Positions 2-30,325 of a DNA stretch of 64,000 nt are shown piece after piece. The notes beneath the pieces are model-generated. The model worked only from the letters and a program-made list of their open reading frames with translations, made no database searches and was not told the DNA's origin. The translations under genes were made by a program, and so were the position numbers. The stretch covers positions 2,048,001-2,112,000 of the forward strand of contig CP084166.1 of the NCBI GenBank assembly GCA_021513695.1, in the 5' to 3' direction. Source of the stretch: Candidatus Heimdallarchaeum aukensis (lineage in GTDB: Archaea; Asgardarchaeota; Heimdallarchaeia; Heimdallarchaeales; Heimdallarchaeaceae). Within the stretch, counting starts at the first letter, position 1; each line of letters opens with the position of its first letter.

Positions 2-3000
2 TTAGTAGGTGTAGGAGAGAGTACAGAGCAGTATATTGCTACAATCAGCAGAGAAGAAAAAACGATTACTTATTCCGCTATTCTAAGTTCAGCAGAGGAG
101 CAAGAACAGTGGAAATATTTCTATATTAGCCTTTATCAGCTTGCGAGACATATTCCTAAAGAATTACTTGTAGATAATTATTCAAATGGAAATAAAGAGG
201 TTGATCTATTAGATGAAAATTACCCTGTTTCTGGTATAATTTCTGATGCAAAAATGGTCGTTAATTATGAAGGTTCATATGTGGAAAAAATCATCCAATT
301 AGAAAAAGGAGCAAATCAAAATCTATACATTTCTGACTTGAAATCTACAATTACTAACATCCATAGCGCATATCCTTACGAAAATGCTTTATCTTCTTTG
401 CCTGAGGAAATAAAATGGAAAAAATATGATGTTCCATTTGATGGGTATATTCCTCTTGATAATGTCTATCTTGATGATTTTGACGGTAGTTCGTATTATA
501 TCTACGATGTAGTGGTTTATGTTGATGCTTCCACTTATTCTAAAGTACATTTAACAGTTGAAACTGAGGGATCTTTTGTTCTTTCTAACCGCTACTCTAT
601 AATATTACAAAAGATGGGTTTTTCAAACGAAGTTGTTTCTACAGTCTTTAGCGCACAACAAGGATATACTCCCTTGTATCTTCACGTTGTTTTTCCAAAA
701 ACAGCTTTTAATCAGAATATACGCATTCAATACATCTCCAATGGAGGAGTGGCTATAAGTGCTGAAAACAATAGAGAAGGAGATGCCATATCAGAGTGGT
801 TGATCTCTACTCCTTTCTATTCGGAAAAAAATGAGGACACCGTTGATTATCTTAATTTTATTTCACAAGTTACACCTATGGAAGGAGAGCGATTCGAAAA
901 AAGAGTAGTAGATTCAGAAGGATTTACCCACACAGAAACAATAGAATTTTCTGAATTCACTTTTCCTGGATTTTGTCCTATCTTAGACTTTGTTCCTCAT
1001 GCTGTTCCTTCAGGTTATTCTGTTATTCTCACTACTACGCTCGATTTCGCCAAAAGTTTGAACACTTCCTTAGTTCTACTTCTAAACAAAGAAAGTGGCA
1101 TAACAATACAATCCTTACTTTGGGATGAGACTCCACTTCTTTACATCAATGAAGGAGTATTTAACGAAATTGACTCCGATTTGGAAAATGGTATGATTAC
1201 TATACCTTTGAATAGTGAAGGGTTAACTGTCAACAGTCTCTTTTCTCCTAAAGAAAACAACCCTAATGAGTATGGTTTCATAGAAAACGACCCTGATTAT
1301 AACTTTCATTTTTCATCTTCTGACCCTTATAGTATAAAAACATCCTCTGTTAACCCTGATTCTGTTATTTTGAACAACAAAGGCATTCACAGAATAGTTA
1401 TCCAATTAACCTTTCCTTCTCCTTATAATACAGATTTTGGAATATATTTGGAAAATGTAGATGATAGCGTGCGAACTGTTTTATCTCCCTCAGATAAAGC
1501 AATAGACTTTCATGCAATCGCACAGAAGAACTTTATTCAATTTGAAAACGATCTTCATCAACCTCAAACTCTTGCTCAATTAGAGAAAAACGAGAATACT
1601 TTATTTAAATCACGATATTTCAAAGATGACTATGGTCAATACCATTCCTATAGAATTTATAGTCTTGGCTTTTCTGATGAATACACCTTAGATAAAGGAA
1701 AGAAATGGAAAATATATGATGGTGATACTGATGATTCTAACGATGTTATCTATGAAAGTACAGCTCACTACAATTGGAAACATGTAATAGGAAAGATGAA
1801 TTTTGCAATTGTTATAGATGAAGGAACTCCACAAGTTTTGCAATTGCCTTTTAATTTTCTAGTAGGTTACATGGTCTTTTGTGATTGGCTAGATACAAAT
1901 GGAGATGGATTAGAAGATACATGTGCTCCTTATATAGGTCTAGCAGACCCCTTAGATGCTAGTTCTACTTACGATGATGTAAAAAAAGGTGTAGTGTATA
2001 ATACAGAGGAAGAGAAGAAAATAAGTTATGATGTTACTGATGAACAACAAGCAGAACTCAAGAATCTTACTGTACGCCAATCGTTGATATCTTCTCTTTC
2101 AACTACAGTAATTACAAAAACAGAAGAAACCATCCCCTTATCCTACACTTCTGACGAAATAGCTGCTATTCAAAACAATGGATTAACTCTTGATCGTTAT
2201 CTTCATTCTTTAATAGAAAATGACTATTTGACCTACTCTGAAGATATTGCAAGAGTAGAAATAACTATTAGTTCTTCAAATAATAAAGAAATTGACCTTG
2301 CTTATGATTATGATAAAGAAATATTGTTCACCCACAGTGTTGATAATGCTACAGGAGAAGAAGAAAAAATAGTCTATGATTTTAGATATGACTGTTTTTC
2401 TGTCCTCACTCCTGATGCTCTTGCTAACGACAACTACAGAGTAGATTTTTATACTTTTAATAATAAACTAAGTCTCTATGATACCGATTTGTATAAACTT
2501 AAAGAAACGCCTAATTCTTACGGATTGTTAGATGATCCACAAACTCTTTCACCTATGGTAGTCTTAGAAAATTATAACTATGAAATAAAAGAAACAGTTA
2601 ATAGTCTTGATTCAAAAGATGAAGAAATTTTAAACAATAGTCCAACAACAATTGTAGACGCTTTTGTTCAAGGATTAAGTCTTTCTCAACTAAGCGTGGA
2701 AATGTATGATGCTGAAATAGAGATGGATTATTACAGTTTAGATCTCTTCTATTCTGTTTTCTTTAATGAATATTTGACTCTACAACAATTCTTCTATTCT
2801 CAAGAAACATTAAATAACAACCAGAATTATCAGTATTATCCTACTGGGACAATCCAATTTGCTAAATGGATTAGTTCAATACTTAACTCCTATATAATCC
2901 AACAATCAGACAAATTATTTGATGAATACCAAAACCGTACTTCTCGATATGATTCAGAGAAAAAAGCTATAGCTGCTATGTCCTTTTTGTTAGACCTTAT

Positions 3001-6000
3001 TATTCCTTATCGCGGATTCAAAACCTACGGTTCGGAACCTAAACCAGAAGAGACTCATCACCCACGTTTCTCTAGTTATGTGGACTTCAAATATAGTCTA
3101 GTTATGTTTTGGGGATTAATCTTAGGTAATAGTGCAGGCTGTGGAATACCTAAAAATTCTGTCTCTCTGTTTAGCGAGAGTGAGAGAACTGGAAAACTCT
3201 TGATGATTGACGAATTATGGGATAAAGCTATTAAACACTGGAACTTGGCAGATAAAAGTAGAATAGATGATCCTAGCGAATATTTGCCCTATACTGACCG
3301 AGCTGTAGTAGACAAAATACTGTTTGACGCCAGAGTAAGAGGAGATGAAGCTATGATCGACTGGATAACAAATGAAGATTATAGTGCTGAGGCTTATTAC
3401 ATGCAACCCTATGGAGTGGATTATTCGATCTATTACTGGTTGAAGGCTTTTACTATTCAACAAGGATATGACCCTTATGCTATCAAGGTTTACACCATTG
3501 AAGAGATGAATAGTCAAGAGAGAGAAGATTTTGACGAAAATTATTTTGTTATAGGCGTTCCTGTTTCCACAATCGAAGACCAATATTTAGAATATAACTG
3601 GTTTGTAAGTCTAGATAAAGAAACACGTGTGCCCACTTCTGCTACATCACAACTAATAGACTTTATCCCTCTTGTATTCGGTCAAAGTTCTAATCCACAT
3701 ATAAGAACAATGATGAAAATAATTAAAAGATTAGGAAATGCAGCAAAAGGAGAAAATTTCGGTTATAATACTTTTAGCATGAGTGAATTCAGCTTAATCG
3801 TTACTTTAGAATTTTTAGTTAATCTTGTAGATATAGGCGCTTTACTTATTGATATCAGAGATGCCTATATAGGAGCTACTCCTTTCATACGCAAAATGTC
3901 GCTCATGCAAATACCAATGGATATACTAGATTTGTTCACTCCAGGACCTTTTTCTCTCGTAGGAAATACAATGAATAAAATTTTCAAATCTATAGTCGGA
4001 GACGTTACCTTAGAAGTAAATAGGATAACAAAAACATTTAATTTACTAGATATTGTACAAAATTTCCCAAAAGGAGAGTGGAAAAGCATTGCTCGAGCAG
4101 CAGGAAAATCAGAACTAATGATCTGGATAGTTGGAGCAGCACAAGTGACTTACCGTTTCTCTAAACTAGCCAATCAATTCTATCAATGGTTCTTCTTCCT
4201 CCCGCAAAAGATTTTCATGAGTAGTTTACAAATAACTTTAGGGTCATTCATGATATTTGCCTCTAAAATGATTTATGCCATCAGAAGAATGGATATCGAA
4301 GAAGCAATGTTGTTAAACATTAAAGCGCAAAAATACTTCAACCAAGGACTAGATGATACCGCTAAAATGACAAGAGCTATATTAAGCCATCCAAAAATGC
4401 TAGCAAGATTTGGAACTGAAGAACTTATAGAACGAGCAAATATAGTAGCAAAATATTACATGAACATTATTATAAAGAAAGTAATGGAATTGGAAGCAAC
4501 ATCAAAAGCAATACTAGAATCGGTTGAAAAGTCACGCTTCTATGTTATGATGGCCTTAAGATATGCTACACATATGTACATGAACACCCCAGGAGGAGTA
4601 GGTATACACTTCTCTCCCAATTTAATTGATAATGAGAAAGAAACTGAAGGAATAAGACATTTCAACACCGTGGATAATATTTTGCCAAAATTAGAATATG
4701 AAATAGCAATGTATTACTGGAAGCATGAATATCTAGCGGATGATGAAAAAATAAAAGAGTATAATAGTGAAAAATTCAATTTCAGAGATGTAGAAAGCGC
4801 AAAAATACATATAACTATAGCTTTTTCATCTATTGCTGCAATACATTCGACACCAGAATCATTCCAAAGATATAAAGAACTACTAGAATACACAGATAAG
4901 AGGTTAATAGAAATAAAAAATGAAAAGGGTGAAAATCTAGAGTATACACCTATATGGTGGATTTTACATTTGCCTGTTGATCCCTCGCTACAAAAACTAG
5001 CCCTTAGCCACATATTTGATGAATCACCTGCAGTTTCACTGCTTCTAAAAGTTCTAATGGTAGAGAAAGGTCTTAACGAAGACTTATTAGAAAATAATAT
5101 CGACGATATAGATGAATACAATAAAGAAGTTCATTCCATTTTAGATCAAATTTTATCTTCTTCCCCCCTAAATATAAGTCATAAAGTCTTTATCCTTGAA
5201 AAAGATGAAAAAGGGAATCATATCTGGAAAGCAAGAATTTTAGATTTGTTAGGGCAATCTGAAGGATCATTAACTAAGTTAAGGACACGAGATGAATATA
5301 TTAAGTGGTCTGTAATCGGTAGAACAGGAATAGACTTGTTAGGCCTTTTCGGAAGTGAAGAATTAAAAAACTATTTTCCCAAAGGAGTAAGAAATGCTTT
5401 AACTGCTAGAAATGATCAAACTTCAATAATCTATGAGCTTATATGTATGGGATTATTAGATTTTAGATTTTATACAGATGATAAAAATGTAAAGGATCAA
5501 TTAAAAATTGATTTTCCAGAGCATGACTTTGAAAAAGAACCCAGTATTAGCATTGCTGAATTAGCTAAAAAATATAGTAAATATGATATTCTAGAATTAT
5601 TTGAAAAAAGTAATTTTATTAGACAGACTCTTATAAGTAATGGAGTAGACGGATTAATACACAGTACAAAAATAGGAAAGTCTCTTTATTCTGTTAAAGA
5701 TTCAACGGGAATATTCAATAAAGCTAATTCAAAAAATATTTTATACTCTGTAGCAGCTGAAAATGCATATATAGGTCATGGAAGTGTTATTTATTATTAT
5801 GATAAGCTACAAGGTGATATTATCACGGATATAGATAATAAATTGATATACAATGCTAGATATTATGATCCTACAGCTTCAAAATCACCTAAACCTTTTG
5901 TTCCAGGCGATGCAATATTACTCTATGATTCCAATGTAAATCGTTATCTGTTTTTAAGAACTAATTTTCCTGAGGACACTATGCTAAATCAAAATCAGAA

Positions 6001-8641
6001 ACTAGATGAATATAGTGGTTTTAAAAGAGAAATTAACGTGTTTTGGTTTCAAATAAACAAAGATACAAATGAGGGAGAGATAGTTTATGATACATTAGAA
6101 CACTATTGTTATGAAAATGAAAAACTGAAGGAAGGAATAAAAGTTGTTGGAACGGAGGATATTTTGCAAGAGGTAGATAAGTTTCATCCAAAGAGAAATA
6201 AAATAAGAAGTAGTCAACCTATAATATCAATAGAAGCAAAGCAAAATGGAGGGAACATAGATTACGTTGTCTCAATGGATGAACAACTTCCTTTATTTAG
6301 GTTTATAGGTGGAGATTATTCAACTGCAACAGAAAAAGACATCAATTTTGCTAGTTTTCTTTACCCAAGAAAACATTCCAACGATATTGTTTTCGGATTG
6401 CAAGATGATAACTTAGATTTTATCGATGAAAAGGGTTTATGGCCTATCCATATGGGTTTAAGCCCAGGAAGGTTTACATACAACGTGCAAAACATATATT
6501 TAGATGAGATTAATTCAGCAAAAGCGTTATTGGATAAATTAGATGAATTAGATAACTTGCCTGTAGTAGAAGTTAAAACAAAGGATAATGAATATATAAC
6601 TCGACCAGCAACAGTTCAGGAAGTAAATCAACAGAGAGTATATGAGTTAATTAGATGGTACTCTACAAGTCAAGTGTATACTTATTATGTGTCTAGTTTA
6701 AATAAAGAAAATAAAGCATTTTTGTGCAGAGCATATCTAGATGATTGGAATGCAGCTAAATCGTTAGGTGAAATCATAGAAATAGCAGAAGATACTAATG
6801 GAAATCTATACCAGAAATATGGTTATGAGAATAAACAAGAATATCTAACCTTTAGAATGAATGTTATTCAAACAATAATAAACGAACAAGAACAGTTCTA
6901 TAAATACAAGTTTAAAGATGAAAGTGATTTAACAAAAGAAGAAAAGTTGGTAATATTTCTAAAAGAACAAAAAGAATTTTTTGAAAGATTACATAATGAC
7001 GCTGCTAAAATAGAGGCATTTCAAGAACCATTTTTTTCAAACTTGAGACTAGACATTAAAGAAGTCGATACATATAATGTACTTAATTATCGCAGTTTAG
7101 AATCGTCAATTGAATTACTTTTATTAAATAGATTTGACTCGTATAATAAGATACACTTATTCGAAGGAGATGTACCTTTTTCAAGAAACCCGATGAAATT
7201 CGGTTTCGATAATGTAATTGTCCAAATAGGTACGAGAGCATTCATAAACAAGGTCAAAGAAGAGGGAATATTAGATTTTGATGAAGATAAAAATTCAGTA
7301 TTAGAACTAGCTAATAAAGTATTTAAAAGAAAAACAGTTATAAAACCATTAATCCGCGGACCAATAAAAGCAAAATCAATTGCTTTTCTCCAACATGAAG
7401 AAACAATGGCTAAACTGAACAATTATAAAACATTGCAAAAAATATCCAAAGAAGAAATAAGGCTCTGGAAACTTTACAACAAAAAATTAGATAATGAAAA
7501 AGGCCATTTGACTGTAGAGCAACTATACGAAATAGAAGAAGAGTTCAACAATATAAATGGAAAAAATATAGTAGGAAAACAAGGAGCAGGGATGACAGTA
7601 ATAGAAGATGGAAACACATATGTTGTAAAAATATACAGTCTCATCAGTGATTTAAGATATAATAACAAAATTCATGCAGGTAGTGAGGCAAATAAGTATG
7701 ATATTGCAGAAAGAGTGTTGGGACTAGCACAACACATAAAGTACGTAGCAAAGGAAGGAAGAATATACATTAATTATGCAATGGCAAACATTCTTTATCT
7801 GATAAAAACACTAACAAACGGTAAAATGGAAATAGATGACGTCCAGAATCTAAGGGACCTGGGAAATCCAAAGGAATTAGAAGCTATACTAGTAAATAAT
7901 TTAGGGGAAGAAAGAACAAAAGAAATACTAAATATTTTAGAAGAAGTAACCATAAGAACGAAAAGAAAAATAAAACAAGGAAAAGATTATTCCATAGAAA
8001 ATATAGAAAAAGGACAATCGTTGGCTTTTCAAATTGGATATGTGGATCTGAAAAATATAACCCCTGAGGTAAGAGGAAAATTAAGGCTACAAGGGATGTT
8101 ATTGAGAGAAATCTTGATGTTACTGGATATAATATATGGACTATATTATACAGGAAGAAATTATATGAAACGCCTAGATATTAATTTAGCGCAAACAACA
8201 GTAATTTTCGAAAAAACAACGGAAGAAGGCAAAACAATACTAAAATTAAAAGACGTAAAAACAAGCACAGAACAAGAAATGAATGGAGAGTTCATATCAT
8301 CACTGAACGATTTCGACCAAAAAACAGCATCAATAATAGAAAAACTGGCTGAAACTAAATATTCATCAGTATTTGGACCAGAATTTATGACTAGAGAACA
8401 ATTAAGAAAATTGGTAGATGAAATAATAGAAGAATATGAGAGTATACTAAAATTGAAAATAAGAAAATTCAATGAAATATTAACTCAAGACGATATGGAA
8501 GTAGAACTAGTAGCAAAGAAATTCAAAATAGAAGAATTGCTAAAAATGCTAACACCTAAAGGATTATGGTCAATGTACGAGCAAAAGAAAAGAAATAATG
8601 AAAAAAGAGGACAAACAAAAATAACAGACTTCCTAATTTAA
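2..8641 (+). CDS. Giant hypothetical protein, 5'-partial: frame is open from base 2 to the window edge, so over 2879 aa. Probable surface/membrane-associated protein.
   Basis: Single uninterrupted ORF. I translated bases 2-253 by hand and found no stop, so the gene starts upstream of the window. No catalytic motif recognised. There is a D-x-D-x-N-G-D-G-x-x-D calcium-binding-like motif (DWLDTNGDGLEDT) and a hydrophobic stretch mid-protein (around nt 3800-4300). Cys-poor, Asn/Asp/Tyr-rich. Confidence 0.7.
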   Translation, partial: LVGVGESTEQYIATISREEKTITYSAILSSAEEQEQWKYFYISLYQLARHIPKELLVDNYSNGNKEVDLLDENYPVSGIISDAKMVVNYEGSYVEKIIQLEKGANQNLYISDLKSTITNIHSAYPYENALSSLPEEIKWKKYDVPFDGYIPLDNVYLDDFDGSSYYIYDVVVYVDASTYSKVHLTVETEGSFVLSNRYSIILQKMGFSNEVVSTVFSAQQGYTPLYLHVVFPKTAFNQNIRIQYISNGGVAISAENNREGDAISEWLISTPFYSEKNEDTVDYLNFISQVTPMEGERFEKRVVDSEGFTHTETIEFSEFTFPGFCPILDFVPHAVPSGYSVILTTTLDFAKSLNTSLVLLLNKESGITIQSLLWDETPLLYINEGVFNEIDSDLENGMITIPLNSEGLTVNSLFSPKENNPNEYGFIENDPDYNFHFSSSDPYSIKTSSVNPDSVILNNKGIHRIVIQLTFPSPYNTDFGIYLENVDDSVRTVLSPSDKAIDFHAIAQKNFIQFENDLHQPQTLAQLEKNENTLFKSRYFKDDYGQYHSYRIYSLGFSDEYTLDKGKKWKIYDGDTDDSNDVIYESTAHYNWKHVIGKMNFAIVIDEGTPQVLQLPFNFLVGYMVFCDWLDTNGDGLEDTCAPYIGLADPLDASSTYDDVKKGVVYNTEEEKKISYDVTDEQQAELKNLTVRQSLISSLSTTVITKTEETIPLSYTSDEIAAIQNNGLTLDRYLHSLIENDYLTYSEDIARVEITISSSNNKEIDLAYDYDKEILFTHSVDNATGEEEKIVYDFRYDCFSVLTPDALANDNYRVDFYTFNNKLSLYDTDLYKLKETPNSYGLLDDPQTLSPMVVLENYNYEIKETVNSLDSKDEEILNNSPTTIVDAFVQGLSLSQLSVEMYDAEIEMDYYSLDLFYSVFFNEYLTLQQFFYSQETLNNNQNYQYYPTGTIQFAKWISSILNSYIIQQSDKLFDEYQNRTSRYDSEKKAIAAMSFLLDLIIPYRGFKTYGSEPKPEETHHPRFSSYVDFKYSLVMFWGLILGNSAGCGIPKNSVSLFSESERTGKLLMIDELWDKAIKHWNLADKSRIDDPSEYLPYTDRAVVDKILFDARVRGDEAMIDWITNEDYSAEAYYMQPYGVDYSIYYWLKAFTIQQGYDPYAIKVYTIEEMNSQEREDFDENYFVIGVPVSTIEDQYLEYNWFVSLDKETRVPTSATSQLIDFIPLVFGQSSNPHIRTMMKIIKRLGNAAKGENFGYNTFSMSEFSLIVTLEFLVNLVDIGALLIDIRDAYIGATPFIRKMSLMQIPMDILDLFTPGPFSLVGNTMNKIFKSIVGDVTLEVNRITKTFNLLDIVQNFPKGEWKSIARAAGKSELMIWIVGAAQVTYRFSKLANQFYQWFFFLPQKIFMSSLQITLGSFMIFASKMIYAIRRMDIEEAMLLNIKAQKYFNQGLDDTAKMTRAILSHPKMLARFGTEELIERANIVAKYYMNIIIKKVMELEATSKAILESVEKSRFYVMMALRYATHMYMNTPGGVGIHFSPNLIDNEKETEGIRHFNTVDNILPKLEYEIAMYYWKHEYLADDEKIKEYNSEKFNFRDVESAKIHITIAFSSIAAIHSTPESFQRYKELLEYTDKRLIEIKNEKGENLEYTPIWWILHLPVDPSLQKLALSHIFDESPAVSLLLKVLMVEKGLNEDLLENNIDDIDEYNKEVHSILDQILSSSPLNISHKVFILEKDEKGNHIWKARILDLLGQSEGSLTKLRTRDEYIKWSVIGRTGIDLLGLFGSEELKNYFPKGVRNALTARNDQTSIIYELICMGLLDFRFYTDDKNVKDQLKIDFPEHDFEKEPSISIAELAKKYSKYDILELFEKSNFIRQTLISNGVDGLIHSTKIGKSLYSVKDSTGIFNKANSKNILYSVAAENAYIGHGSVIYYYDKLQGDIITDIDNKLIYNARYYDPTASKSPKPFVPGDAILLYDSNVNRYLFLRTNFPEDTMLNQNQKLDEYSGFKREINVFWFQINKDTNEGEIVYDTLEHYCYENEKLKEGIKVVGTEDILQEVDKFHPKRNKIRSSQPIISIEAKQNGGNIDYVVSMDEQLPLFRFIGGDYSTATEKDINFASFLYPRKHSNDIVFGLQDDNLDFIDEKGLWPIHMGLSPGRFTYNVQNIYLDEINSAKALLDKLDELDNLPVVEVKTKDNEYITRPATVQEVNQQRVYELIRWYSTSQVYTYYVSSLNKENKAFLCRAYLDDWNAAKSLGEIIEIAEDTNGNLYQKYGYENKQEYLTFRMNVIQTIINEQEQFYKYKFKDESDLTKEEKLVIFLKEQKEFFERLHNDAAKIEAFQEPFFSNLRLDIKEVDTYNVLNYRSLESSIELLLLNRFDSYNKIHLFEGDVPFSRNPMKFGFDNVIVQIGTRAFINKVKEEGILDFDEDKNSVLELANKVFKRKTVIKPLIRGPIKAKSIAFLQHEETMAKLNNYKTLQKISKEEIRLWKLYNKKLDNEKGHLTVEQLYEIEEEFNNINGKNIVGKQGAGMTVIEDGNTYVVKIYSLISDLRYNNKIHAGSEANKYDIAERVLGLAQHIKYVAKEGRIYINYAMANILYLIKTLTNGKMEIDDVQNLRDLGNPKELEAILVNNLGEERTKEILNILEEVTIRTKRKIKQGKDYSIENIEKGQSLAFQIGYVDLKNITPEVRGKLRLQGMLLREILMLLDIIYGLYYTGRNYMKRLDINLAQTTVIFEKTTEEGKTILKLKDVKTSTEQEMNGEFISSLNDFDQKTASIIEKLAETKYSSVFGPEFMTREQLRKLVDEIIEEYESILKLKIRKFNEILTQDDMEVELVAKKFKIEELLKMLTPKGLWSMYEQKKRNNEKRGQTKITDFLI

Positions 8642-15549: not shown

Positions 15550-15645
15550 TTAAAATAAAGAATTTTAAATAAATTCTCTTCTTTTTTTGTTTTTTATTTA
15601 TAAAAGCAAATAAATTTTAAATAATACCATAAAAGTAGGAAAAAC

Positions 15646-19178: not shown

Positions 19179-19658
19179 TAAAACGAAAATCTCAATAAAT
19201 ATTTATAAATTTTATCTATTAAGAAGTATTATGACTAATTAGAACTATCTTGATAATACTCTAAAAGACTAGTTACTAAAAGTAAACAATAAACATAAAA
19301 AACAACCACACCCTAGAAAACTTAGAAAGAGAGTAGTTAAAAAGTACAGAATGGAGAGGAAGTAACCTAAACCGCAGTATAGTAAATATTGAGTAGAAAA
19401 ACCATCTATAAGCGAATTAAAAAGATAAGGAAGATACTAATAAAGAATGGTGTGTAAACACTCGGATGTATCAAAGAAGGGAAAGCGGAAGATCCACCAT
19501 AATTATCACTGATTTAATATCCTGTACTCAGTAGGACACCTAAACCTCTCAAACGGGTATCGAAGATGACAAAAGATTCTTCCATGAGAAGGTAATCCAT
19601 TTTGTTAGTAATTGACCTCTTAATCTTAATTCTCTATAAACTAATTAAAATAGGAACT

Positions 19659-19797
19659 TGGTGCCCCGACCGGGAACCTCAAAAAAAATGCCTCAACATT
19701 TTTCTTTTTGAACCCGGGTCTGCGGATATTCCTGCCACATCCGCGAACTTTAGCATGTGAAAGTCCGCAATGATTGGCCGAGCTACACCATCGGGGC
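19659..19797 (-). tRNA. tRNA-Glu(TTC) with two introns (anticodon loop about 30 nt and T-loop about 31 nt), CCA encoded
   Basis: Exon sequence closely resembles archaeal tRNA-Glu (GCCCCGA-TGGTGTAGCTCGGCCAATCAT-GCGGA-CTTTCA...TCCGC-AGAC-CCGGG-TTCAA...TT-CCCGG-TCGGGGC-A-CCA). 139 nt = 77 + 2 insertions. Confidence 0.75.
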
Positions 19798-19998
19798 ATA
19801 GAGTTTTTGTCTTGTTGAAATGATAGAATTAAATTGATTTTTAATATTTTTGTTTGTCGTGTCCTCTTATTAATAATGATTTTCTTTATATTCTGTTATT
19901 ATCTTACAGAGATAAATTTAAAAAATAAATGTTAACTCGTTTCTTAATCCATATAGAAAAACTGCTCGTTTCCTACTTTGTTCATTTGCTTAAAATTT

Positions 19999-20084
19999 CG
20001 CGGGGATTGCCGAGCGGTCAAAGGCGCTGGACTTAGGATCCAGTCCTTAGTGGTTCGAGAGTTCGAATCTCTCTCCCCGCACCA
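19999..20084 (+). tRNA. tRNA-Leu(TAG), long variable arm, CCA encoded; integration target
   Basis: Acceptor GCGGGGA/TCCCCGC, anticodon arm CTGGA-CTTAGGA-TCCAG, T-arm GAGAG-TTCGAAT-CTCTC. 3' end duplicated 2.8 kb downstream. Confidence 0.85.
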
Positions 20085-20095
20085 TTTCTTCTTTT
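20057..20095. repeat. 39-bp direct repeat, copy 1 (attL-like): last 28 nt of tRNA-Leu plus 11 nt
   Basis: gagagttcgaatctctctccccgcaccatttcttctttt, identical to 22887-22925. Confidence 0.85.
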
Positions 20096-21080
20096 ATCTT
20101 TATATATTTCCTTTTCCTTTTTTCTTTATGGTTGCTTTTTCTCCTACTTTTTCTGTTATCGATTCTTTCTCTTTTCTTCACGACCCTCAATTTGTTTTTT
20201 TACTTCAGACTTTTATTGATTCTTCCCCTGACTTTTTTTCGTTTCTTTCTCTTCTTTCTTCCTCTTCTCCCTCTTCTCTTTCTTCTTTTGTAAGGGACAT
20301 TTTTTTACTTATTTCTTTTGATGATCCTTTTTCTCTTTCTTCTTCCTCTTTTCATTTTTTTGATTCTCATTTTAATTGGAAATCTTTTCTTTCCTTTTTC
20401 CTTGATTCTTTTTCTTCCCGTAAATTTTCTCTTTGCAATTTTTCTTTATTTTATGCTCATTTTTCTTTTTTGCATTTTTCTATTCCTAATTTTTTATCTG
20501 ATTTTGCATTCTTTTTTTTATCTGATTTAGATTTTAATTTTTTATCTTCTTCCTTTTTCAGTTCTTTTTTCTCTTTTGAATCTTTTTATGATTTTTTCTT
20601 TTCTTATTTTGATTCTTTTTTACCTTCCTATCGTCTCCTTATGCGTCATCGTTTTAATTCTTCTCCTAACCATTTTTTTCCTCCTTTTCTTCCATTCCTT
20701 CGTTCTGAAGAGGTTAGCTCTTATTTTAAGTCCTTTCTGTATATTTGTGGCTTTGATAAATCTGTTTTCGGTTTTGGTTCTTCTCGTGCTAAGGTTGATC
20801 CTCGTCAATTTGCTGAGTCTTTTCAAACTTCTTGGATTAAATTGCACTTTCATTTAGACAAAATGCGTTTTCCTTTTACTCTTTCTTCTACTCGTGTTCT
20901 TTCTCTTTATCATCCTGGTCGTTATGTTTCTTCTGTTAATCCAAGTAATGGTTTTGACGATCTAATTGTTTTTTCTTCCTCCTCTTCCATTCCATCCTCT
21001 CTTTCCTCTTCTCCTTCTTCTCTTTCTTCCTTTTCTTCTCCCGTTTCTCCCTGCTTTACTATTTGTGTTATTGAGCAAAA
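20096..21080 (+). other. About 1-kb polypyrimidine (C+T) tract on + strand
   Basis: Plus strand is overwhelmingly T/C with only scattered purines. Open in several frames on both strands because stop codons need purines (or T on the complement). Confidence 0.8.
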
Positions 21081-21081
21081 A

Positions 21082-22881
21082 ATGAACCATTTAGACGTTA
21101 AGCGTTTAGATAGTCCTTCTTCCTCTTCCGATTTTACGCGTTATCTCTCTTACCTTGCTAAAACCCACTTAAATCCCTTTATTCTTCTTTTACAAGCGTT
21201 TCATTATCCTGAAAAAGATAGACTTAAATTGTCCTCTCTATTGTATGATCGCTCTTTAACTTATTCTAACTCTGTTGGATTAGACTTTTTACGTAAAATC
21301 ACGAATGGTGATTTTCTATCTTCTCTTAAACTAATTGAACCTTCTTTAGATGATCAAACTATCAATAATATTCTTCGGGGTTCTATTATCCAGCACCAGC
21401 TTATTTCTTTGATTAAGTCTGGTTTTTGTTTTAAATTGGCTTTTGTTGATGGTTATTATACCGTTAAAAAGAGGTATCCTGGTGACCTGGTCTCTTCTGT
21501 TATATGTTATTATAATTGTTTAAATGGTTCTTGCGTTGAAATCCATTTTCCTTCGTCGCTATTTGAAATAAGAATAGATTCTAGGGGTCATTTTCTTGTA
21601 CCTCAGTACTCTGAATCTCAGATTTCTTCATATGCAAAGACAGAAAACGAGCTTATGGCTTATCAGGAACTCAACAATCTATTTAACACTTTACGGAGCG
21701 ATATGATTTTTAATGTAAATATTTTGTCTCTCCCTCCTTTTGAAATTGTAAAAAAAGTTAATTTATATCAAAAAAAGATTCTCTTTTTTTTACTTAATTC
21801 TAGACGAATTGCTGATTTAAGTATCTTTAACGATGGTTTTGTTAAATCTTATTTGGAAATTTTTACTTTACCAAAAACAGCTCATCGGATCAAGAGATAC
21901 TTATCCTATATACACGATTCACTTTCAATTTTTCCCTATTCGTTTTATCAGCAGTGGAATGCTCCTTTTGGCGATAGACTAAAAAACATGTTCTCTGGTT
22001 CTTTTAGTCGTGATACCCTTCTTTGTAAGCGTTTTAAAGAAAAGCTTCTTGAGTTTATTTTATCCTCTGATTATGATTTTTCCGAAATGCCTTTAGAATT
22101 TATTGAAACTAAGTTACGTCATTCACCTGATATTCAAATTTTTTTAGATTGCTATTTTAGTCAGTTTGCTCTTTATCCTGACGGTAATTTTTTACGGTTT
22201 AAACATAATAAAATTTCTTTGAAAGCTCTTGCTTTTTGGGATGAGACCAACAATCAATGGTTTTCGCTTAACAAGAAGCGTTTTTACATTTTATTGAACT
22301 TTGAAGATATTTTAGCTAATATAAGTAAGGAAGTGTCTTTTAAAGTAACAAAAAATCTTTTGCTTTTTCCTATTAAATTTAGTTTAAATAAACGCACAGG
22401 GCAGTTATCAGCTCTATTTAATACTGATTTTACTAACACTGAAGTAAACAGAATTTGGGTTGCATATCTTAAAAAATTGAAAGGAATGGATCTTTCCTTT
22501 GAGATTTTGTCCTCTTTTTCTTATGGTCAACGAAATAAGCGGAGTGGAATTGATTTATTCTATAACTGTAACCAAAAAAAGCTTTCAATATTGTTGGCAA
22601 TATTATCAGAAACTATTAAGTTGTGGAGTTTGGTTAAAGAACTTGTCCTTAACGTTGTTTATAAAAAATTAGATTCTGAAATGGATAAAATTATCTTATC
22701 TACCAAAGGAGATAAAATTGTTCTCAATGGCAAGCAATACAAAATGGTCTTACTCAATTACAATGAAAGTAATTCAAGGGTTAGGTGGTCGTTTAAACAC
22801 TACCTATTTCCTGTTGAAGGAACAATTATTGATGATTTTGTTAAAAAATGTTATTCTATTTATACTGATTTATTTTCTTAG
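21082..22881 (+). CDS. Hypothetical protein of the tRNA-Leu-inserted element (conservative start; in-frame extension to ATG 20128 would add an S/F/L-rich low-complexity N-terminus)
   Basis: Normal-complexity ORF (MNHLDVKRLDSP...) ending exactly at the right repeat. No integrase/recombinase motifs seen. Confidence 0.55.
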   Translation: MNHLDVKRLDSPSSSSDFTRYLSYLAKTHLNPFILLLQAFHYPEKDRLKLSSLLYDRSLTYSNSVGLDFLRKITNGDFLSSLKLIEPSLDDQTINNILRGSIIQHQLISLIKSGFCFKLAFVDGYYTVKKRYPGDLVSSVICYYNCLNGSCVEIHFPSSLFEIRIDSRGHFLVPQYSESQISSYAKTENELMAYQELNNLFNTLRSDMIFNVNILSLPPFEIVKKVNLYQKKILFFLLNSRRIADLSIFNDGFVKSYLEIFTLPKTAHRIKRYLSYIHDSLSIFPYSFYQQWNAPFGDRLKNMFSGSFSRDTLLCKRFKEKLLEFILSSDYDFSEMPLEFIETKLRHSPDIQIFLDCYFSQFALYPDGNFLRFKHNKISLKALAFWDETNNQWFSLNKKRFYILLNFEDILANISKEVSFKVTKNLLLFPIKFSLNKRTGQLSALFNTDFTNTEVNRIWVAYLKKLKGMDLSFEILSSFSYGQRNKRSGIDLFYNCNQKKLSILLAILSETIKLWSLVKELVLNVVYKKLDSEMDKIILSTKGDKIVLNGKQYKMVLLNYNESNSRVRWSFKHYLFPVEGTIIDDFVKKCYSIYTDLFS

Positions 22882-22886
22882 GCTTG

Positions 22887-22925
22887 GAGAGTTCGAATCT
22901 CTCTCCCCGCACCATTTCTTCTTTT
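22887..22925. repeat. 39-bp direct repeat, copy 2 (attR-like)
   Basis: Identical to tRNA-Leu 3' portion plus 11 nt. Confidence 0.85.
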
Positions 22926-22967
22926 CTTTTGTTTTCTTTTTCGTTTTGTTTCGTTTTGTTTATTTTT

Positions 22968-23009
22968 TGATAGTGATAGTGATAGTTACACCTTTTTTGA
23001 TAGTGATAG
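22968..23009. repeat. TGATAG hexamer array (3 + 2 tandem copies, each preceded by TTTTT)
   Basis: ttttttgatagtgatagtgatag ... ttttttgatagtgatag, immediately after the element right repeat. Confidence 0.8.
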
Positions 23010-23012
23010 ACT

Positions 23013-23708
23013 TTATTTTTCTCTTATTGTTCCGTAAATTCTCATATATCTTGGTTTTATTTTTTTTCTTTTGATGTATCTTTTTATTATCGTCACATCT
23101 ACTATTATTTTTACTCCTATCATTATCATCAATATTGTTTCTATTGTTCCATTGAATACCAGTAGATAAATTAGGAATTCTTCATCTCCTGCTGCATTAG
23201 CTATTGAAGCTATTACTGAAACAATTATTGAATAGAATCCGAATATTTGGTATAATATACTTCCCACTTTAATATCTGTTATTTTTTTTATTCTTGTTAG
23301 CATTAGATCTATTTTTCTGAATCCTATTGCTCTTGACGCTAGACTTATTAGAATCGCAAAGCTTCCGAAAACCACACTTCCTATAGTGAATGGTTTTAAT
23401 ATTTCTCCTATTGCATAAATCAACAAATATGTTCTTCCTTGCATTCCTTCCTTTCTGACGTGGTCTTTAAAGTATAGGTCTGCTATTCCTCCGAAGCTTA
23501 ATGCTATTGGTATTAAGCTTAGAGCTATTACTGCAGCAAAAATATAATCAAAAAACCAATTTACTGCTCTTAAGTATTGTATTGTCCTGTTCGACAGATT
23601 TATTGCTGCTGCTATTGTAAACAAAATGCTTCCCGTTATTGCTAAAAAAGAAAATTTGTTTATTTCTGTGTTAAATATTTTCTTCTGCTTTTCTTCGTTT
23701 GAGACCAT
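23013..23708 (-). CDS. Hypothetical membrane protein, paralog of 27285-27950
   Basis: 231 aa multi-TM. Shared blocks with the 27285 protein (..GFG..F...F......R.EG, basic KRK-rich C-terminal tail). Confidence 0.6.
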   Translation of the reverse strand: MVSNEEKQKKIFNTEINKFSFLAITGSILFTIAAAINLSNRTIQYLRAVNWFFDYIFAAVIALSLIPIALSFGGIADLYFKDHVRKEGMQGRTYLLIYAIGEILKPFTIGSVVFGSFAILISLASRAIGFRKIDLMLTRIKKITDIKVGSILYQIFGFYSIIVSVIASIANAAGDEEFLIYLLVFNGTIETILMIMIGVKIIVDVTIIKRYIKRKKIKPRYMRIYGTIREK

Positions 23709-29617: not shown

Positions 29618-30325
29618 TTATAGGTTGACATTTTGTTCTTCTTCAAAGTTATAAAGTGAAGCTAAAACGTGAGAAATAACAGAAAAAAGCTCTAATCCAT
29701 GAGGATAAATTGATAATCGATAATCAACAAATTTAGAGTCAATATTAAGGTGTCCATGGGAAAATCCACCAAAAATGAGCAGAGGATTTGAACAACGAGA
29801 AGAAAGAAGATAAGCATATTCACGAGAAGGTAAGACATCTCCCTTTTGAGAAAATTCAACAATAAGGTCATGTTTTTCACGAGCAGAAATTAAGAATTGA
29901 GTTAAAGATTGAGGATGAAGAGTGAGTAAAGGCTCATCAGAAAGAGGAGGAACACGGCCTTCCTTGAAAAGTTGAATCATAAGCCCCTTAAAACGATCTA
30001 AATTTTTAGGAAGACGAATAGAAGGATGGAATTCTATGATTAGATCATTAATGGTATGAATAAAGACACGAAGACGGCGATCTTGAGAAAGAAGAGAACC
30101 AAAACAGGCAAGAAGAGCTAAATGTGGAATATCAGGACGACCACGCTTGGATAAATTAGGTAAATTAGACATAAAACGAGAATGATAATTGGAATCAAGA
30201 ATAATATCACTAGGTTTTTTCTTTATCTTGCGAAAAAAGTTACGGACGGGTAAATTGGATAAAAGCTCTGAAGGAAAAGTTTCCAGAGAAGAATCAGCAA
30301 CAAGGATGGTATAAACATGGGGCAT
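29618..30325 (-). CDS. nep1: Ribosome biogenesis SPOUT methyltransferase Nep1/Emg1
   Basis: ILDSNYH ... RGRPDIPHLALL ... IHT ... RLPKN..RF.G ... GGFSHG, colinear with archaeal Nep1. Confidence 0.82.
   Translation of the reverse strand: MPHVYTILVADSSLETFPSELLSNLPVRNFFRKIKKKPSDIILDSNYHSRFMSNLPNLSKRGRPDIPHLALLACFGSLLSQDRRLRVFIHTINDLIIEFHPSIRLPKNLDRFKGLMIQLFKEGRVPPLSDEPLLTLHPQSLTQFLISAREKHDLIVEFSQKGDVLPSREYAYLLSSRCSNPLLIFGGFSHGHLNIDSKFVDYRLSIYPHGLELFSVISHVLASLYNFEEEQNVNL

What the first reader, a model, noticed from the sequence alone, without database searches (positions are those of the whole stretch)
20096..21080. About 1-kb near-pure polypyrimidine tract inside the inserted element
For roughly 1 kb the + strand is almost entirely C/T (e.g. 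ttcttcctcttctccctcttctctttcttcttttg...). Such tracts are open in multiple frames on both strands, so the long S/F/L-rich N-terminus of the 967-codon ORF may be an artefact, or a genuinely low-complexity domain. Long homopurine/homopyrimidine mirror-repeat-rich tracts can form triplex (H-DNA), block replication, or serve as binding platforms. Nothing else of this length and purity appears in the window.
Basis: seen in the sequence. Interest (0 to 1): 0.55.

Follow-up and report, generated by a model that had tools for sequence, protein, structure and literature searches.

The report
Pyrimidine-rich coding start of tRNA-inserted gene
The C/T-rich kilobase is most likely the translated, low-complexity front end of the only gene in a 2.8-kb insert at a tRNA-Leu gene of an Asgard archaeon, and its bias also affects silent codon positions and fades along the gene, so it is unusual but not a non-coding structural DNA element.

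Summary
The tract is real and is the most skewed kilobase in the window. It is 78% pyrimidine, not near-pure, and only one of six frames is open.

It is the 5' third of a 917-codon ORF (20128-22881). This is the only gene in a 2,830-bp insert flanked by a 39-42-nt repeat of the tRNA-Leu(UAG) 3' end, in Ca. Heimdallarchaeum aukensis.

Evidence that it is coding:
- Codon phase is locked across the whole tract.
- All indels among five variants are in frame.
- omega is about 0.25.
- C<->T changes concentrate at third codon positions.
- A TATA-like box lies 29 nt before the ATG.

Homology to a Heimdallarchaeaceae-only orphan protein family starts at residue ~189. Residues 1-188 (Phe/Ser/Leu-rich) and a Ser-rich loop are specific to this copy.

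The bias also acts at the nucleotide level. T at four-fold sites falls 0.85 to 0.51 along the gene, codon choice is pyrimidine-rich, and D/N/H replace E/K/Q. All other family members, including a paralogue in the same genome, have normal composition.

The cause of the bias is inferred, not shown. Mirror symmetry does not exceed the composition expectation, so H-DNA gets no specific support.

In sister lineages the gene core is replaced by a mini-CRISPR array whose spacer matches this gene.

The parts
20000..20084 (+). tRNA-Leu (anticodon UAG), the integration target
   Evidence: ARAGORN; Rfam tRNA, 59.1 bits
20054..20095 (.). Left copy of the direct repeat (attL-like). 39 nt are exact (20057-20095), or 42 nt with 1 mismatch. 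It covers the tRNA 3' end plus 11 nt.
   Evidence: the repeat finder family D3, spacing 2830; sequence read
20099..20106 (+). TTTATATA, an archaeal TATA-box-like motif 29 nt upstream of ATG 20128. This geometry fits a leaderless mRNA.
   Evidence: Motif scan. Host ORF 15646 has the same geometry (TATA-like motif at 15616). Conserved in L001 and L002. Promoter function is inferred, not shown.
20128..22881 (+). The only ORF of the insert: 917 codons plus TAG. GenBank annotates only the last 746 codons (start at M172, nt 20641), as K9W45_09175.
   Evidence: Core under purifying selection against L001 (pS 0.072, pN 0.015). Homologues found.
20128..20691 (+). First and main block of the tract. It encodes residues 1-188: F 26.6%, S 24.5%, L 12.2%, D 7.4%, P 5.3%. 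This low-complexity N-terminal extension is specific to this copy.
   Evidence: Composition. No aligned counterpart in P0003. T3 is 0.73-0.79 in every 99-nt block. omega 0.24-0.36 and in-frame indels. AF2 pLDDT below 50.
20242..20289 (+). 48-nt uninterrupted pyrimidine run, with an imperfect mirror repeat at 20243-20284 (arms 17 nt, spacer 8)
20692..21081 (+). Second block of the tract. It encodes the start of the family-conserved core (residues 189-318), including NGFDD (20947-20961) and E-x-K (21073-21081).
   Evidence: Alignment with P0003, P0007 and P0009. T3 0.72. Reading the motifs as a PD-(D/E)xK nuclease signature is a guess and is not supported by fold search.
20974..21051 (+). Ser-rich loop insertion (SSSSSIPSSLSSSPSSLSSFSSPVSP) between the NGFDD and E-x-K motifs. 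Distant homologues lack it. It contains the second 48-nt pyrimidine run (20995-21042).
   Evidence: L001 differs here by an in-frame 9-nt indel.
21383..21419 (+). Protospacer-like site. It matches 33 of 37 nt of spacer 1 of the mini-CRISPR array that replaces the gene core in sister lineages. All four differences are synonymous, and both encode IIQHQLISLIKS, the most conserved motif of the family.
22884..22925 (.). Right copy of the direct repeat (attR-like). It starts 2 nt after the ORF stop codon.

Best explanation
The tract is protein-coding sequence. It is the first ~318 codons of a 917-codon gene, the only gene of a 2,830-bp insert in the 3' end of tRNA-Leu(UAG) in Ca. Heimdallarchaeum aukensis. 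About 70% of its pyrimidine excess comes from amino-acid composition: a Phe/Ser/Leu/Pro-rich N-terminal extension (residues 1-188) and a Ser-rich loop (residues 283-308). About 30% comes from near-exclusive use of pyrimidine-rich synonymous codons. The primary cause acts on the nucleic acid, not on the protein. On the sense strand, purines have been replaced mainly by T, most strongly at the 5' end and fading over the whole 2.75 kb. This pressure reshaped the weakly constrained N-terminus (E to D, K to N, Q to H, and many F/S/L) and left the conserved core biased mostly at silent sites. My preferred mechanism is inferred, not shown: a strand-asymmetric, distance-dependent loss of purines on the non-template strand, anchored at the insert's 5' promoter or at an ancestral replication origin. 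As a by-product, the mRNA would carry about 22 oligo-U tracts, which are archaeal termination signals, before the conserved core. Full-length expression is therefore probably low.
For: Shown:
- One frame is open and the other five are closed.
- T at third positions is 0.73-0.79 in every 99-nt block from 20128 to about 21018, in phase with the homology-supported core.
- Among five variants all indels are in frame, and omega is 0.24-0.36 (Fisher p 4e-5 to 4e-3).
- C<->T changes are distributed 3/1/13 over codon positions 1/2/3 (p 0.003).
- A TATA-like box lies 29 nt before the ATG.
- A JGI gene call in L002 starts at the same ATG (P0010).

Nucleotide-level pressure:
- Ser codons: TCT 60, TCC 14, AGY 3, TCA 0. 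Host: TCT 29%, AGT 26%, TCA 25%.
- Arg: CGT in 10 of 11 codons (host AGA 56%). Ile: ATA 0 of 11 (host 45%).
- Observed Y is 0.812, against 0.697 expected for the same protein with host codons, and a host mean of 0.442.
- At four-fold sites T falls 0.85, 0.79, 0.67, 0.63, 0.51 along the gene. A rises 0.02 to 0.29, G rises 0.01 to 0.06-0.08, and C stays at 0.11-0.14.
- D+N+H against E+K+Q is 27:5 in residues 1-188, against 26:36 in the last fifth and 100:211 to 155:189 in homologues.

Specific to this copy: the other family members, including paralogue K9W45_08685 in the same genome, have sense-strand Y 0.38-0.45 and T3 0.29-0.40.

T>=5 runs: 39 per kb in 20128-20691, against 2.0 per kb in host ORFs.
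Against: - There is no transcript or peptide evidence.
- NCBI annotates the start at M172 in both full-length copies. That start would leave 20128-20640 untranslated.
- Zero stops in the first 171 codons is only weakly significant given the composition (P 0.036-0.057).
- Variable sites by codon position within the first 188 codons (10/6/13) are not significant on their own.
- The N-terminus has no confident predicted fold and no homologue support.
- A purely mutational cause does not explain the C-rich Ser/Pro codons.
- A bona fide host gene (EMG1, 29618-30325, minus strand) also has sense-strand Y 0.63 and T3 0.61. Only the first ~1 kb of the ORF lies outside the host range.
- A 5'-to-3' decline of T-over-A skew in host genes of the window (p 0.033) was not reproduced in 27 genes from other Heimdallarchaeaceae loci (p 0.90).
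- The 22 oligo-T runs are hardly more than composition predicts (17.5 +/- 2.7).
Confidence: 0.6

Rival explanations
1. The bias is maintained by selection on the RNA or DNA, not by mutation. A U-rich, structure-free 5' region packed with oligo-U terminators insulates the insert from read-through from the tRNA gene. It also keeps expression of a selfish, possibly nuclease-encoding gene low.
For: The insert displaced the tRNA's own T-rich trailer by 2.8 kb (sequence 22926-22970). T>=5 runs are 20-fold enriched over host ORFs. The tract is kept as an open frame even in lineages that lost the gene core. Overall G+C of the tract (0.31) equals the window average.
Against: T runs are not clearly more frequent than composition alone predicts (z about 1.7). 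The Ser-rich second block has few T runs (2.6 per kb). A smooth gradient over 2.75 kb looks more like a distance-dependent process than a functional block. omega rises to 0.38-0.57 among the truncated variants, which suggests relaxation rather than retention.
Confidence: 0.2
2. Protein-level selection is primary. The Phe/Ser/Leu-rich N-terminus and the Ser loop are functional low-complexity (disordered or membrane-associating) domains, and the DNA bias is only their shadow.
For: omega is about 0.25, and the peptide is well conserved among five variants. About 70% of the pyrimidine excess follows from the amino-acid sequence.
Against: This cannot explain the synonymous codon choice (TCY over AGY or TCA, CGT over AGA, ATT over ATA). 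It also cannot explain the four-fold-site gradient that continues through the conserved core, or the E-to-D, K-to-N and Q-to-H shift. Homologues work without such a domain.
Confidence: 0.1
3. 20128-20640 is not translated. The gene starts at M172 (20641), as annotated, and the upstream 0.5 kb is a non-coding leader or remnant whose open frame is a by-product of purine poverty.
For: The NCBI annotation of both full-length copies starts at M172. Family homology begins only 17 residues later. The chance of zero stops is not negligible (0.036-0.057).
Against: Codon phase is locked over all blocks. All indels are multiples of 3. C<->T changes are concentrated at third positions. The TATA-like box is placed for a leaderless ATG at 20128. 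There is no comparable motif before 20641 (sequence read).
Confidence: 0.12
4. The tract is a structural DNA element, a homopurine-homopyrimidine tract that forms H-DNA/triplex. It acts as a replication or transcription barrier or as a protein-binding platform for the element.
For: Two 48-nt pure pyrimidine runs, the longest in the window. Imperfect mirror repeats with arms of 16-17 nt inside them.
Against: There is no exact mirror repeat (arm >=10, spacer <=8) in 20000-21200, while several exist elsewhere in the window. Imperfect mirrors do not exceed composition-matched shuffles in number or length (31 against 15.2 +/- 8.4; longest 17 against a shuffle maximum of 18). Both runs lie in coding sequence with codon phase.
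Confidence: 0.05
5. The tract is a degenerate expanded trinucleotide microsatellite, (TTC)n read as Phe/Ser/Leu, produced by replication slippage.
For: F, S and L are the three readings of TTC/TCT/CTT. Variants differ by short in-frame duplications. There are local arrays with periods 9, 12, 21, 24 and 30.
Against: TRF finds only short, weak arrays (66-82% matches). The TTC-cycle trinucleotide share (0.269) is close to the mononucleotide expectation (0.229). Autocorrelation is modest (z <= 3.4 at lags 12 and 24). Slippage would not explain the bias at silent sites in the conserved core.
Confidence: 0.05

Closest known systems
Low-complexity ('cryptically simple') coding regions shaped by nucleotide bias (general knowledge)
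   Same: The open frame is kept, length variation is in frame, purifying selection is weak, and there is no predicted fold.
   Different: The bias runs towards pyrimidines on the sense strand of a genome whose genes are purine-loaded (host mean Y 0.44). It extends to silent sites and decays along the gene.
Szybalski's rule / purine loading of mRNA-synonymous strands (from my own knowledge)
   Same: It is a purine/pyrimidine strand asymmetry tied to the direction of transcription.
   Different: The sign is inverted and the magnitude is far beyond host genes. Only the first ~1 kb is outside the host range, because the host gene EMG1 reaches Y 0.63.
Transcription-associated strand-asymmetric mutation concentrated near the 5' ends of genes, and single-strand-exposure gradients in rolling-circle or mitochondrial replication (from my own knowledge)
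   Same: There is a monotonic decay of a strand-specific bias at silent sites with distance from one end.
   Different: Known spectra are dominated by deamination (C to T, A to G). Here A and G are replaced by T and C is unchanged at four-fold sites, which looks more like purine loss. No direct evidence of the process was obtained. A host-wide gradient was not reproducible.
H-DNA-forming homopurine-homopyrimidine mirror repeats such as GAA/TTC tracts (from my own knowledge)
   Same: There are two 48-nt homopyrimidine runs.
   Different: There is no exact mirror symmetry, and the imperfect symmetry is as expected from composition. The runs are coding.
tRNA-integrating archaeal elements with att repeats (SSV-type or other tyrosine-integrase elements; from my own knowledge)
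   Same: The insert sits at the 3' end of a tRNA gene. It is bounded by a 39-42-nt direct repeat that restores the tRNA.
   Different: No integrase or any recognisable recombinase domain is present. There is one gene only. The element is fixed at the same site in two species, and no empty site or circular form was found.
Element-borne mini-CRISPR arrays used in conflicts between related elements, and the 'territorial dispute' and tRNA-adjacent orphan array C4 described for Heimdallarchaeum (PMC8813620)
   Same: In Ca. H. endolithica and two metagenomic relatives, the same insert carries two exact 30-nt repeats. The intervening spacer matches the core gene of the full-length insert.
   Different: This feature is not in the window. 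I did not verify that this array is the paper's C4 or that its repeat belongs to a cas-associated array.

Membership tests
Protein-coding sequence (for 20128-21081) | Single open frame, others closed | tested here: met
   0 stops in the ORF frame against 4-30 in the other five. For the first 171 codons alone, P(0 stops) is 0.036-0.057 by shuffling.
Protein-coding sequence (for 20128-21081) | Codon-phase periodicity continuous with a homology-supported region | tested here: met
   T3 is 0.73-0.79 in all blocks from 20128 to about 21018. Homology to P0003, P0007 and P0009 starts at residue ~189.
Protein-coding sequence (for 20128-21081) | Purifying selection on the translated product, with in-frame indels only | tested here: met
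   omega 0.24-0.36 with Fisher p down to 4e-5, and all indels are multiples of 3. C<->T changes are distributed 3/1/13 by codon position, p 0.003. The counts are small, and variable sites within residues 1-188 alone are not significant.
Protein-coding sequence (for 20128-21081) | Homologues of residues 1-188 | tested here: not met
   No aligned counterpart in P0003. P0007 and P0009 have N-terminal extensions of normal composition, and their alignment to the tract is not reliable.
Protein-coding sequence (for 20128-21081) | Transcript or peptide evidence | not testable with these tools
   No expression data were available.
H-DNA / triplex-forming tract | Long homopurine-homopyrimidine run | tested here: met
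   Two 48-nt runs.
H-DNA / triplex-forming tract | Mirror-repeat symmetry beyond what composition gives | tested here: not met
   No exact mirrors (arm >=10) in the tract. Imperfect mirrors match shuffles.
H-DNA / triplex-forming tract | Structural transition under supercoiling | not testable with these tools
   This needs S1 or chemical probing.
Tandem repeat / microsatellite | Head-to-tail copies of a unit over most of the tract | tested here: not met
   Only short local arrays with 66-82% matches. Trinucleotide content is near the mononucleotide expectation.
tRNA-integrated mobile element | Direct repeat of the tRNA 3' end bounding the insert | tested here: met
   20054-20095 and 22884-22925, 41 of 42 identical, spacing 2830.
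tRNA-integrated mobile element | Element-encoded integrase or recombinase | tested here: not met
tRNA-integrated mobile element | Presence/absence polymorphism or an excised form | tested here: inconclusive
   All related loci found are occupied: two full-length (window, L001) and the rest truncated (L002, L003, L009). L012 is also occupied but ends inside the insert, so its state is unresolved. No empty site was found. Sampling is small.
tRNA-integrated mobile element | Recognised as foreign by CRISPR | tested here: met
   A spacer in the sister-lineage mini-array matches 21383-21419 with synonymous differences only.
PD-(D/E)xK nuclease (for the encoded protein) | D...(D/E)xK motif on a restriction-endonuclease-like fold | tested here: inconclusive
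   NGFDD and E-x-K are conserved in 3 of 4 aligned homologues. The region is modelled at pLDDT below 50. No fold or profile match was found.

The most novel reading that the evidence does not exclude
The tract records a process not yet described in Asgard archaea: a 5'-anchored replacement of purines by T on the sense strand. It is strong enough to rewrite the dispensable N-terminus of a protein. It acts on an integrase-less, single-gene selfish insert at a tRNA gene. The insert belongs to an orphan gene family that also occurs as solitary insertions elsewhere, and in sister species its core was replaced by a mini-CRISPR array aimed at that very gene.
Probability: 0.15. Interest if true: 0.7.

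Novelty: new variant of a known kind. Interest (0 to 1): 0.45.

Why it matters
If the reading is right, the annotated gene K9W45_09175 is 171 codons too short. The tract would then be a clean natural example of nucleotide-level pressure overriding protein composition inside one gene, with a built-in control: paralogues of normal composition in the same genome.

The locus also defines a very small, integrase-less insert at a tRNA gene in the archaeal lineage closest to eukaryotes. It shows a conflict at a single chromosomal site between the intact insert and a derivative that carries a CRISPR spacer against it. Both points bear on how mobile elements and defence systems turn over in Asgard genomes.

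The H-DNA idea that motivated the finding is not supported, so the tract should not be catalogued as a structural DNA element.

Tried and rejected
**Searches that found no annotation or fold**
- Pfam, PHROGs, PADLOC, NCBIfam and PDB sequence profiles gave no hit for the protein or four homologues.
- tblastn against phage and plasmid collections found nothing.
- Viral contigs held no relatives of P0003 or P0007.
- GTDB genomes held no relative of the core. The alignment query was too divergent for the search for related loci.
- The word-indexed protein search was swamped by low-complexity words and returned only close copies. The exhaustive HMMER search was needed.

**Ideas tested and dropped**
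- *The tract is more conserved than the core between window and L001, implying silent-site constraint.* Rejected. The near-identical patch (19750-20650) also covers host intergenic DNA and the tRNA, so it is a low-divergence or recombination patch.
- *The 5'-to-3' T-over-A gradient is a host-wide property.* It was marginal in the window (p 0.033) and absent in 27 genes from other loci (p 0.90).
- *Adjacency to a tRNA gene is sufficient.* The evidence is mixed. The gene co-oriented downstream of tRNA-Val has normal overall composition, although its first third is T-skewed (0.57).
- *Microsatellite origin.* Rejected as the main cause.
- *Selected mirror symmetry.* Rejected.
- *SSV-type split integrase.* The frame through both att copies is the same (EFESLSPHHFFF). 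However, nothing in the ORF resembles an integrase, and other family members are not next to tRNA genes or flanked by repeats. I did not pursue this further.
Full report
**1. The observation**

On the + strand, 20096-21080 is 77.6% pyrimidine (T 55.6%, C 21.9%, A 13.5%, G 8.9%).
- 100-nt windows are 0.79-0.83 between 20100 and 20699, and 0.62-0.76 between 20700 and 21099.
- It is the most skewed kilobase of the window: 0.786, against a mean of 0.493 and sd of 0.078 for 1000-nt windows. The next most extreme stretches are 0.293, 0.303 and 0.695.
- It is not 'near-pure'. The longest uninterrupted runs are two of 48 nt (20242-20289 and 20995-21042).
- It is not open in several frames. The ORF frame has 0 stops, the other + frames have 4 and 30, and the three - frames have 19, 23 and 10.
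- G+C (0.31) equals the window average.

**2. Context**

tRNA-Leu(UAG) lies at 20000-20084. Its last 31 nt plus the next 11 nt are repeated at 22884-22925. The repeat is 41 of 42 identical, with 39 nt exact, and the spacing is 2,830 bp.

Between the repeats there is one ORF. The mechanical call starts at a TTG inside the tRNA (19978). The first ATG is at 20128 and the stop at 22879-22881, giving 917 codons.

The flanking genes are ordinary host genes: a CoA ligase, PlsY, a metallopeptidase, lipoyl synthase and LplA.

The protein matches GenBank K9W45_09175 of Candidatus Heimdallarchaeum aukensis, which is annotated from M172 as 746 aa. This genome was published by Wu et al. 2022 (PMC8813620). 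I found no description of this insert or tract in that paper.

**3. The gene family**

Profile libraries and PDB sequences give nothing.

An exhaustive HMMER search with residues 189-917 found eight proteins. The named ones are all from Heimdallarchaeaceae or Heimdallarchaeota MAGs:
- a 95%-identical copy (P0002);
- distant members P0003 (E 2.7e-31), P0004, P0006, P0007 and P0009;
- P0019, a paralogue in the same H. aukensis genome (K9W45_08685), which sits in the same sequence cluster as P0009.

Homology starts at about residue 189 (nt 20692). The motifs NGFDD (20947-20961) and E-x-K (21073-21081) are conserved. In the window protein they are separated by a 26-residue Ser-rich loop (20974-21051) that the distant homologues lack.

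The core is under purifying selection between the window and L001 (pS 0.072, pN 0.015).

The other members are solitary genes in varied places, with no tRNA or flanking repeats. One sits alone between the two fumarate hydratase subunit genes.

**4. Is the tract coding?**

Evidence for:
- T at third codon positions is 0.73-0.79 in every 99-nt block from 20128 to about 21018. It is always highest at the same phase, and that phase is continuous with the conserved core.
- Five independent versions of the locus are available: the window, L001, L002, L003 and Ca. H. endolithica L009. They differ in the tract only by in-frame indels. omega is 0.24-0.36 between the full-length and truncated clades (Fisher p 4e-5 to 4e-3).
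- C<->T changes fall 3/1/13 on codon positions 1/2/3 (p 0.003).
- TTTATATA at 20099-20106 lies 29 nt before ATG 20128. Host ORF 15646 has the same geometry, which fits a leaderless archaeal mRNA. This is an inference.
- A JGI gene call in L002 starts at this ATG.

Evidence against:
- NCBI starts both full-length copies at M172.
- Zero stops in the first 171 codons is only weakly significant (0.036-0.057).
- Variable sites within residues 1-188 alone (10/6/13) are not significant.
- There is no homologue or confident fold for residues 1-188.

I rate translation from 20128 at about 0.8.

**5. Where the pyrimidines come from**

Residues 1-188 are F 26.6%, S 24.5%, L 12.2%, D 7.4% and P 5.3%.

For 20128-20691 the observed Y is 0.812. 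The same protein written with host codon usage would give 0.697, and the host mean is 0.442. So about 70% of the excess is amino-acid composition and about 30% is codon choice.

Codon choice in the first 318 codons is extreme:
- Ser: TCT 60, TCC 14, AGY 3, TCA 0. Host: TCT 29%, AGT 26%, TCA 25%.
- Arg: CGT in 10 of 11 codons (host AGA 56%).
- Ile: ATT 10, ATA 0 (host ATA 45%).
- Val: GTT in 12 of 13. Thr: ACT in 6 of 6.

At four-fold sites the bias forms a gradient along the gene:

| Base | Fifths of the ORF, 5' to 3' |
|---|---|
| T | 0.85, 0.79, 0.67, 0.63, 0.51 |
| A | 0.02 rising to 0.29 |
| G | 0.01 rising to 0.06-0.08 |
| C | flat at 0.11-0.14 |

Amino acids with Y-ending two-fold codons displace their R-ending partners. 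D+N+H against E+K+Q is 27:5 in residues 1-188 and 26:36 in the last fifth. Homologues show 100:211 to 155:189.

These are signatures of pressure on the nucleic acid. The protein composition follows where constraint is weak.

**6. Specificity**

Four other family genes, including the paralogue in the same genome, have sense-strand Y 0.38-0.45 and T3 0.29-0.40, with no gradient. The bias therefore belongs to this copy.

It is not wholly outside the host range. The host EMG1 gene (29618-30325, minus strand) has Y 0.63 and T3 0.61. Only the first ~1 kb of the ORF is exceptional.

A weak host-wide 5'-to-3' decline in the window (p 0.033) did not replicate elsewhere (p 0.90).

**7. Mechanism (inferred)**

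Three features point to a strand-asymmetric, distance-dependent substitution process:
- the gradient is smooth over 2.75 kb;
- the change at silent sites is purine to T, with C unchanged;
- oligo-T runs show no excess over the composition expectation (22 against 17.5 +/- 2.7).

Such a process would be anchored at the 5' end of the insert. Purine loss on the exposed non-template strand, or on a displaced strand, is the best fit. I hold this at about 0.35-0.4.

A functional consequence follows in either case. There are 39 T>=5 runs per kb in 20128-20691, against 2.0 per kb in host ORFs. Oligo-T tracts are archaeal termination signals (my own knowledge), so full-length expression is probably throttled.

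Selection for exactly that effect is the main rival.

**8. H-DNA and repeats**

There are no exact mirror repeats (arm >=10, spacer <=8) in 20000-21200, although several occur elsewhere in the window. Imperfect mirrors (arms 14-17 nt) occur inside the two 48-nt runs, but they are not more numerous or longer than in composition-matched shuffles.

TRF finds only short, weak arrays, mostly with periods that are multiples of 3. Trinucleotide content is near the mononucleotide expectation. The tract is not a microsatellite.

**9. Related loci**

L001 (a Heimdallarchaeaceae MAG) holds a full-length copy with an in-frame 90-nt deletion and a 9-nt loop indel.

Ca. H. endolithica (L009) and the metagenomic contigs L002 and L003 carry a 1.35-kb version at the same tRNA.
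- The tract ORF is kept for 235-246 codons. In L002 and L003 it ends at a CAA-to-TAA change at the position of window 20824.
- The core (window 20832-22763) is replaced by about 436 nt.
- That replacement begins with two exact copies of ATTTCAATCCTATCTTAGTCCAATTTTAAC, separated by 36 nt.
- The 36 nt match window 21383-21419. Read against the window sequence, the four differences are all synonymous, and both encode IIQHQLISLIKS.

This is probably the tRNA-adjacent orphan array C4 of PMC8813620, but I did not verify that.

No empty site or circular junction was found.

**10. Verdict**

The tract is real and statistically exceptional. It is best explained as unusual low-complexity coding sequence shaped by a copy-specific, 5'-weighted pressure towards pyrimidines on the sense strand. 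It is not a non-coding structural element. The cause of that pressure remains open.

Noticed in passing
L002 1126-1300; L003 647-742; L009 (Ca. H. endolithica CP084167) 5675-5770, minus strand: In sister lineages the core of the insert's gene is replaced by a mini-CRISPR-like array. It has two exact 30-nt repeats and a possible degenerate third. Its first spacer matches window 21383-21419 with only synonymous differences, so a derivative of the insert carries a spacer against the intact insert at the same chromosomal site. It is possibly the published orphan array C4.
   Followed up: partly
L015 2875-5595 and L016 3291-6011: A 906-aa family member of normal composition sits alone between the Fumerase_C and Fumerase subunit genes. 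This looks like a solitary single-gene insertion. No flanking repeats were found.
   Followed up: partly
L014 8001-10403 (same genome as the window, K9W45_08685): A paralogue of the insert's gene in Ca. H. aukensis has a purine-rich sense strand (Y 0.38, T3 0.29), the opposite of the window copy.
   Followed up: yes
window 19663-19800, minus strand: A tRNA-like sequence (GCCCCGATGGTGTAGC...GGGTTCAAA...GGTCGGGGCACCA) appears to be interrupted by at least two insertions, one of them in the T-loop. It is not called by ARAGORN (with or without intron mode) or by Rfam. It may be a multi-intron archaeal tRNA.
   Followed up: partly
window 29618-30325, minus strand: The housekeeping EMG1/Nep1-like gene has a pyrimidine-rich sense strand (Y 0.63, T3 0.61, S+F+L+P 41%). 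Neighbouring genes reach T3 0.15-0.2. Sense-strand purine loading is very uneven among host genes in this window.
   Followed up: partly
window 19978-20127 and 22718-23074: The main ORF's frame stays open upstream through the left att copy. A 118-codon ORF reads through the right att copy in the same att frame (EFESLSPHHFFF). In a circularised insert the two would join into one frame longer than the circle. This resembles split SSV-type integrase genes, but there is no integrase similarity.
   Followed up: no
window 254-8638: A 2,795-codon ORF whose third-position T-over-A skew falls from +0.17 to -0.28 along its length. It was not annotated here. The source paper describes giant genes in this genus.
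   Followed up: no
L001 7310-8713, against window 19410-19610: The related MAG carries an extra NosD/beta-helix gene upstream of the tRNA-Leu that the window lacks. A NosD/beta-helix gene also lies near the P0003 family member in L004.
   Followed up: no
window 22963-23009: Just outside the right att copy there are two exact copies of TTTTTTGATAGTGATAG, 30 nt apart, with TGATAG hexamer repeats. They overlap the 3' end of the convergent host gene 23013-23708.
   Followed up: no
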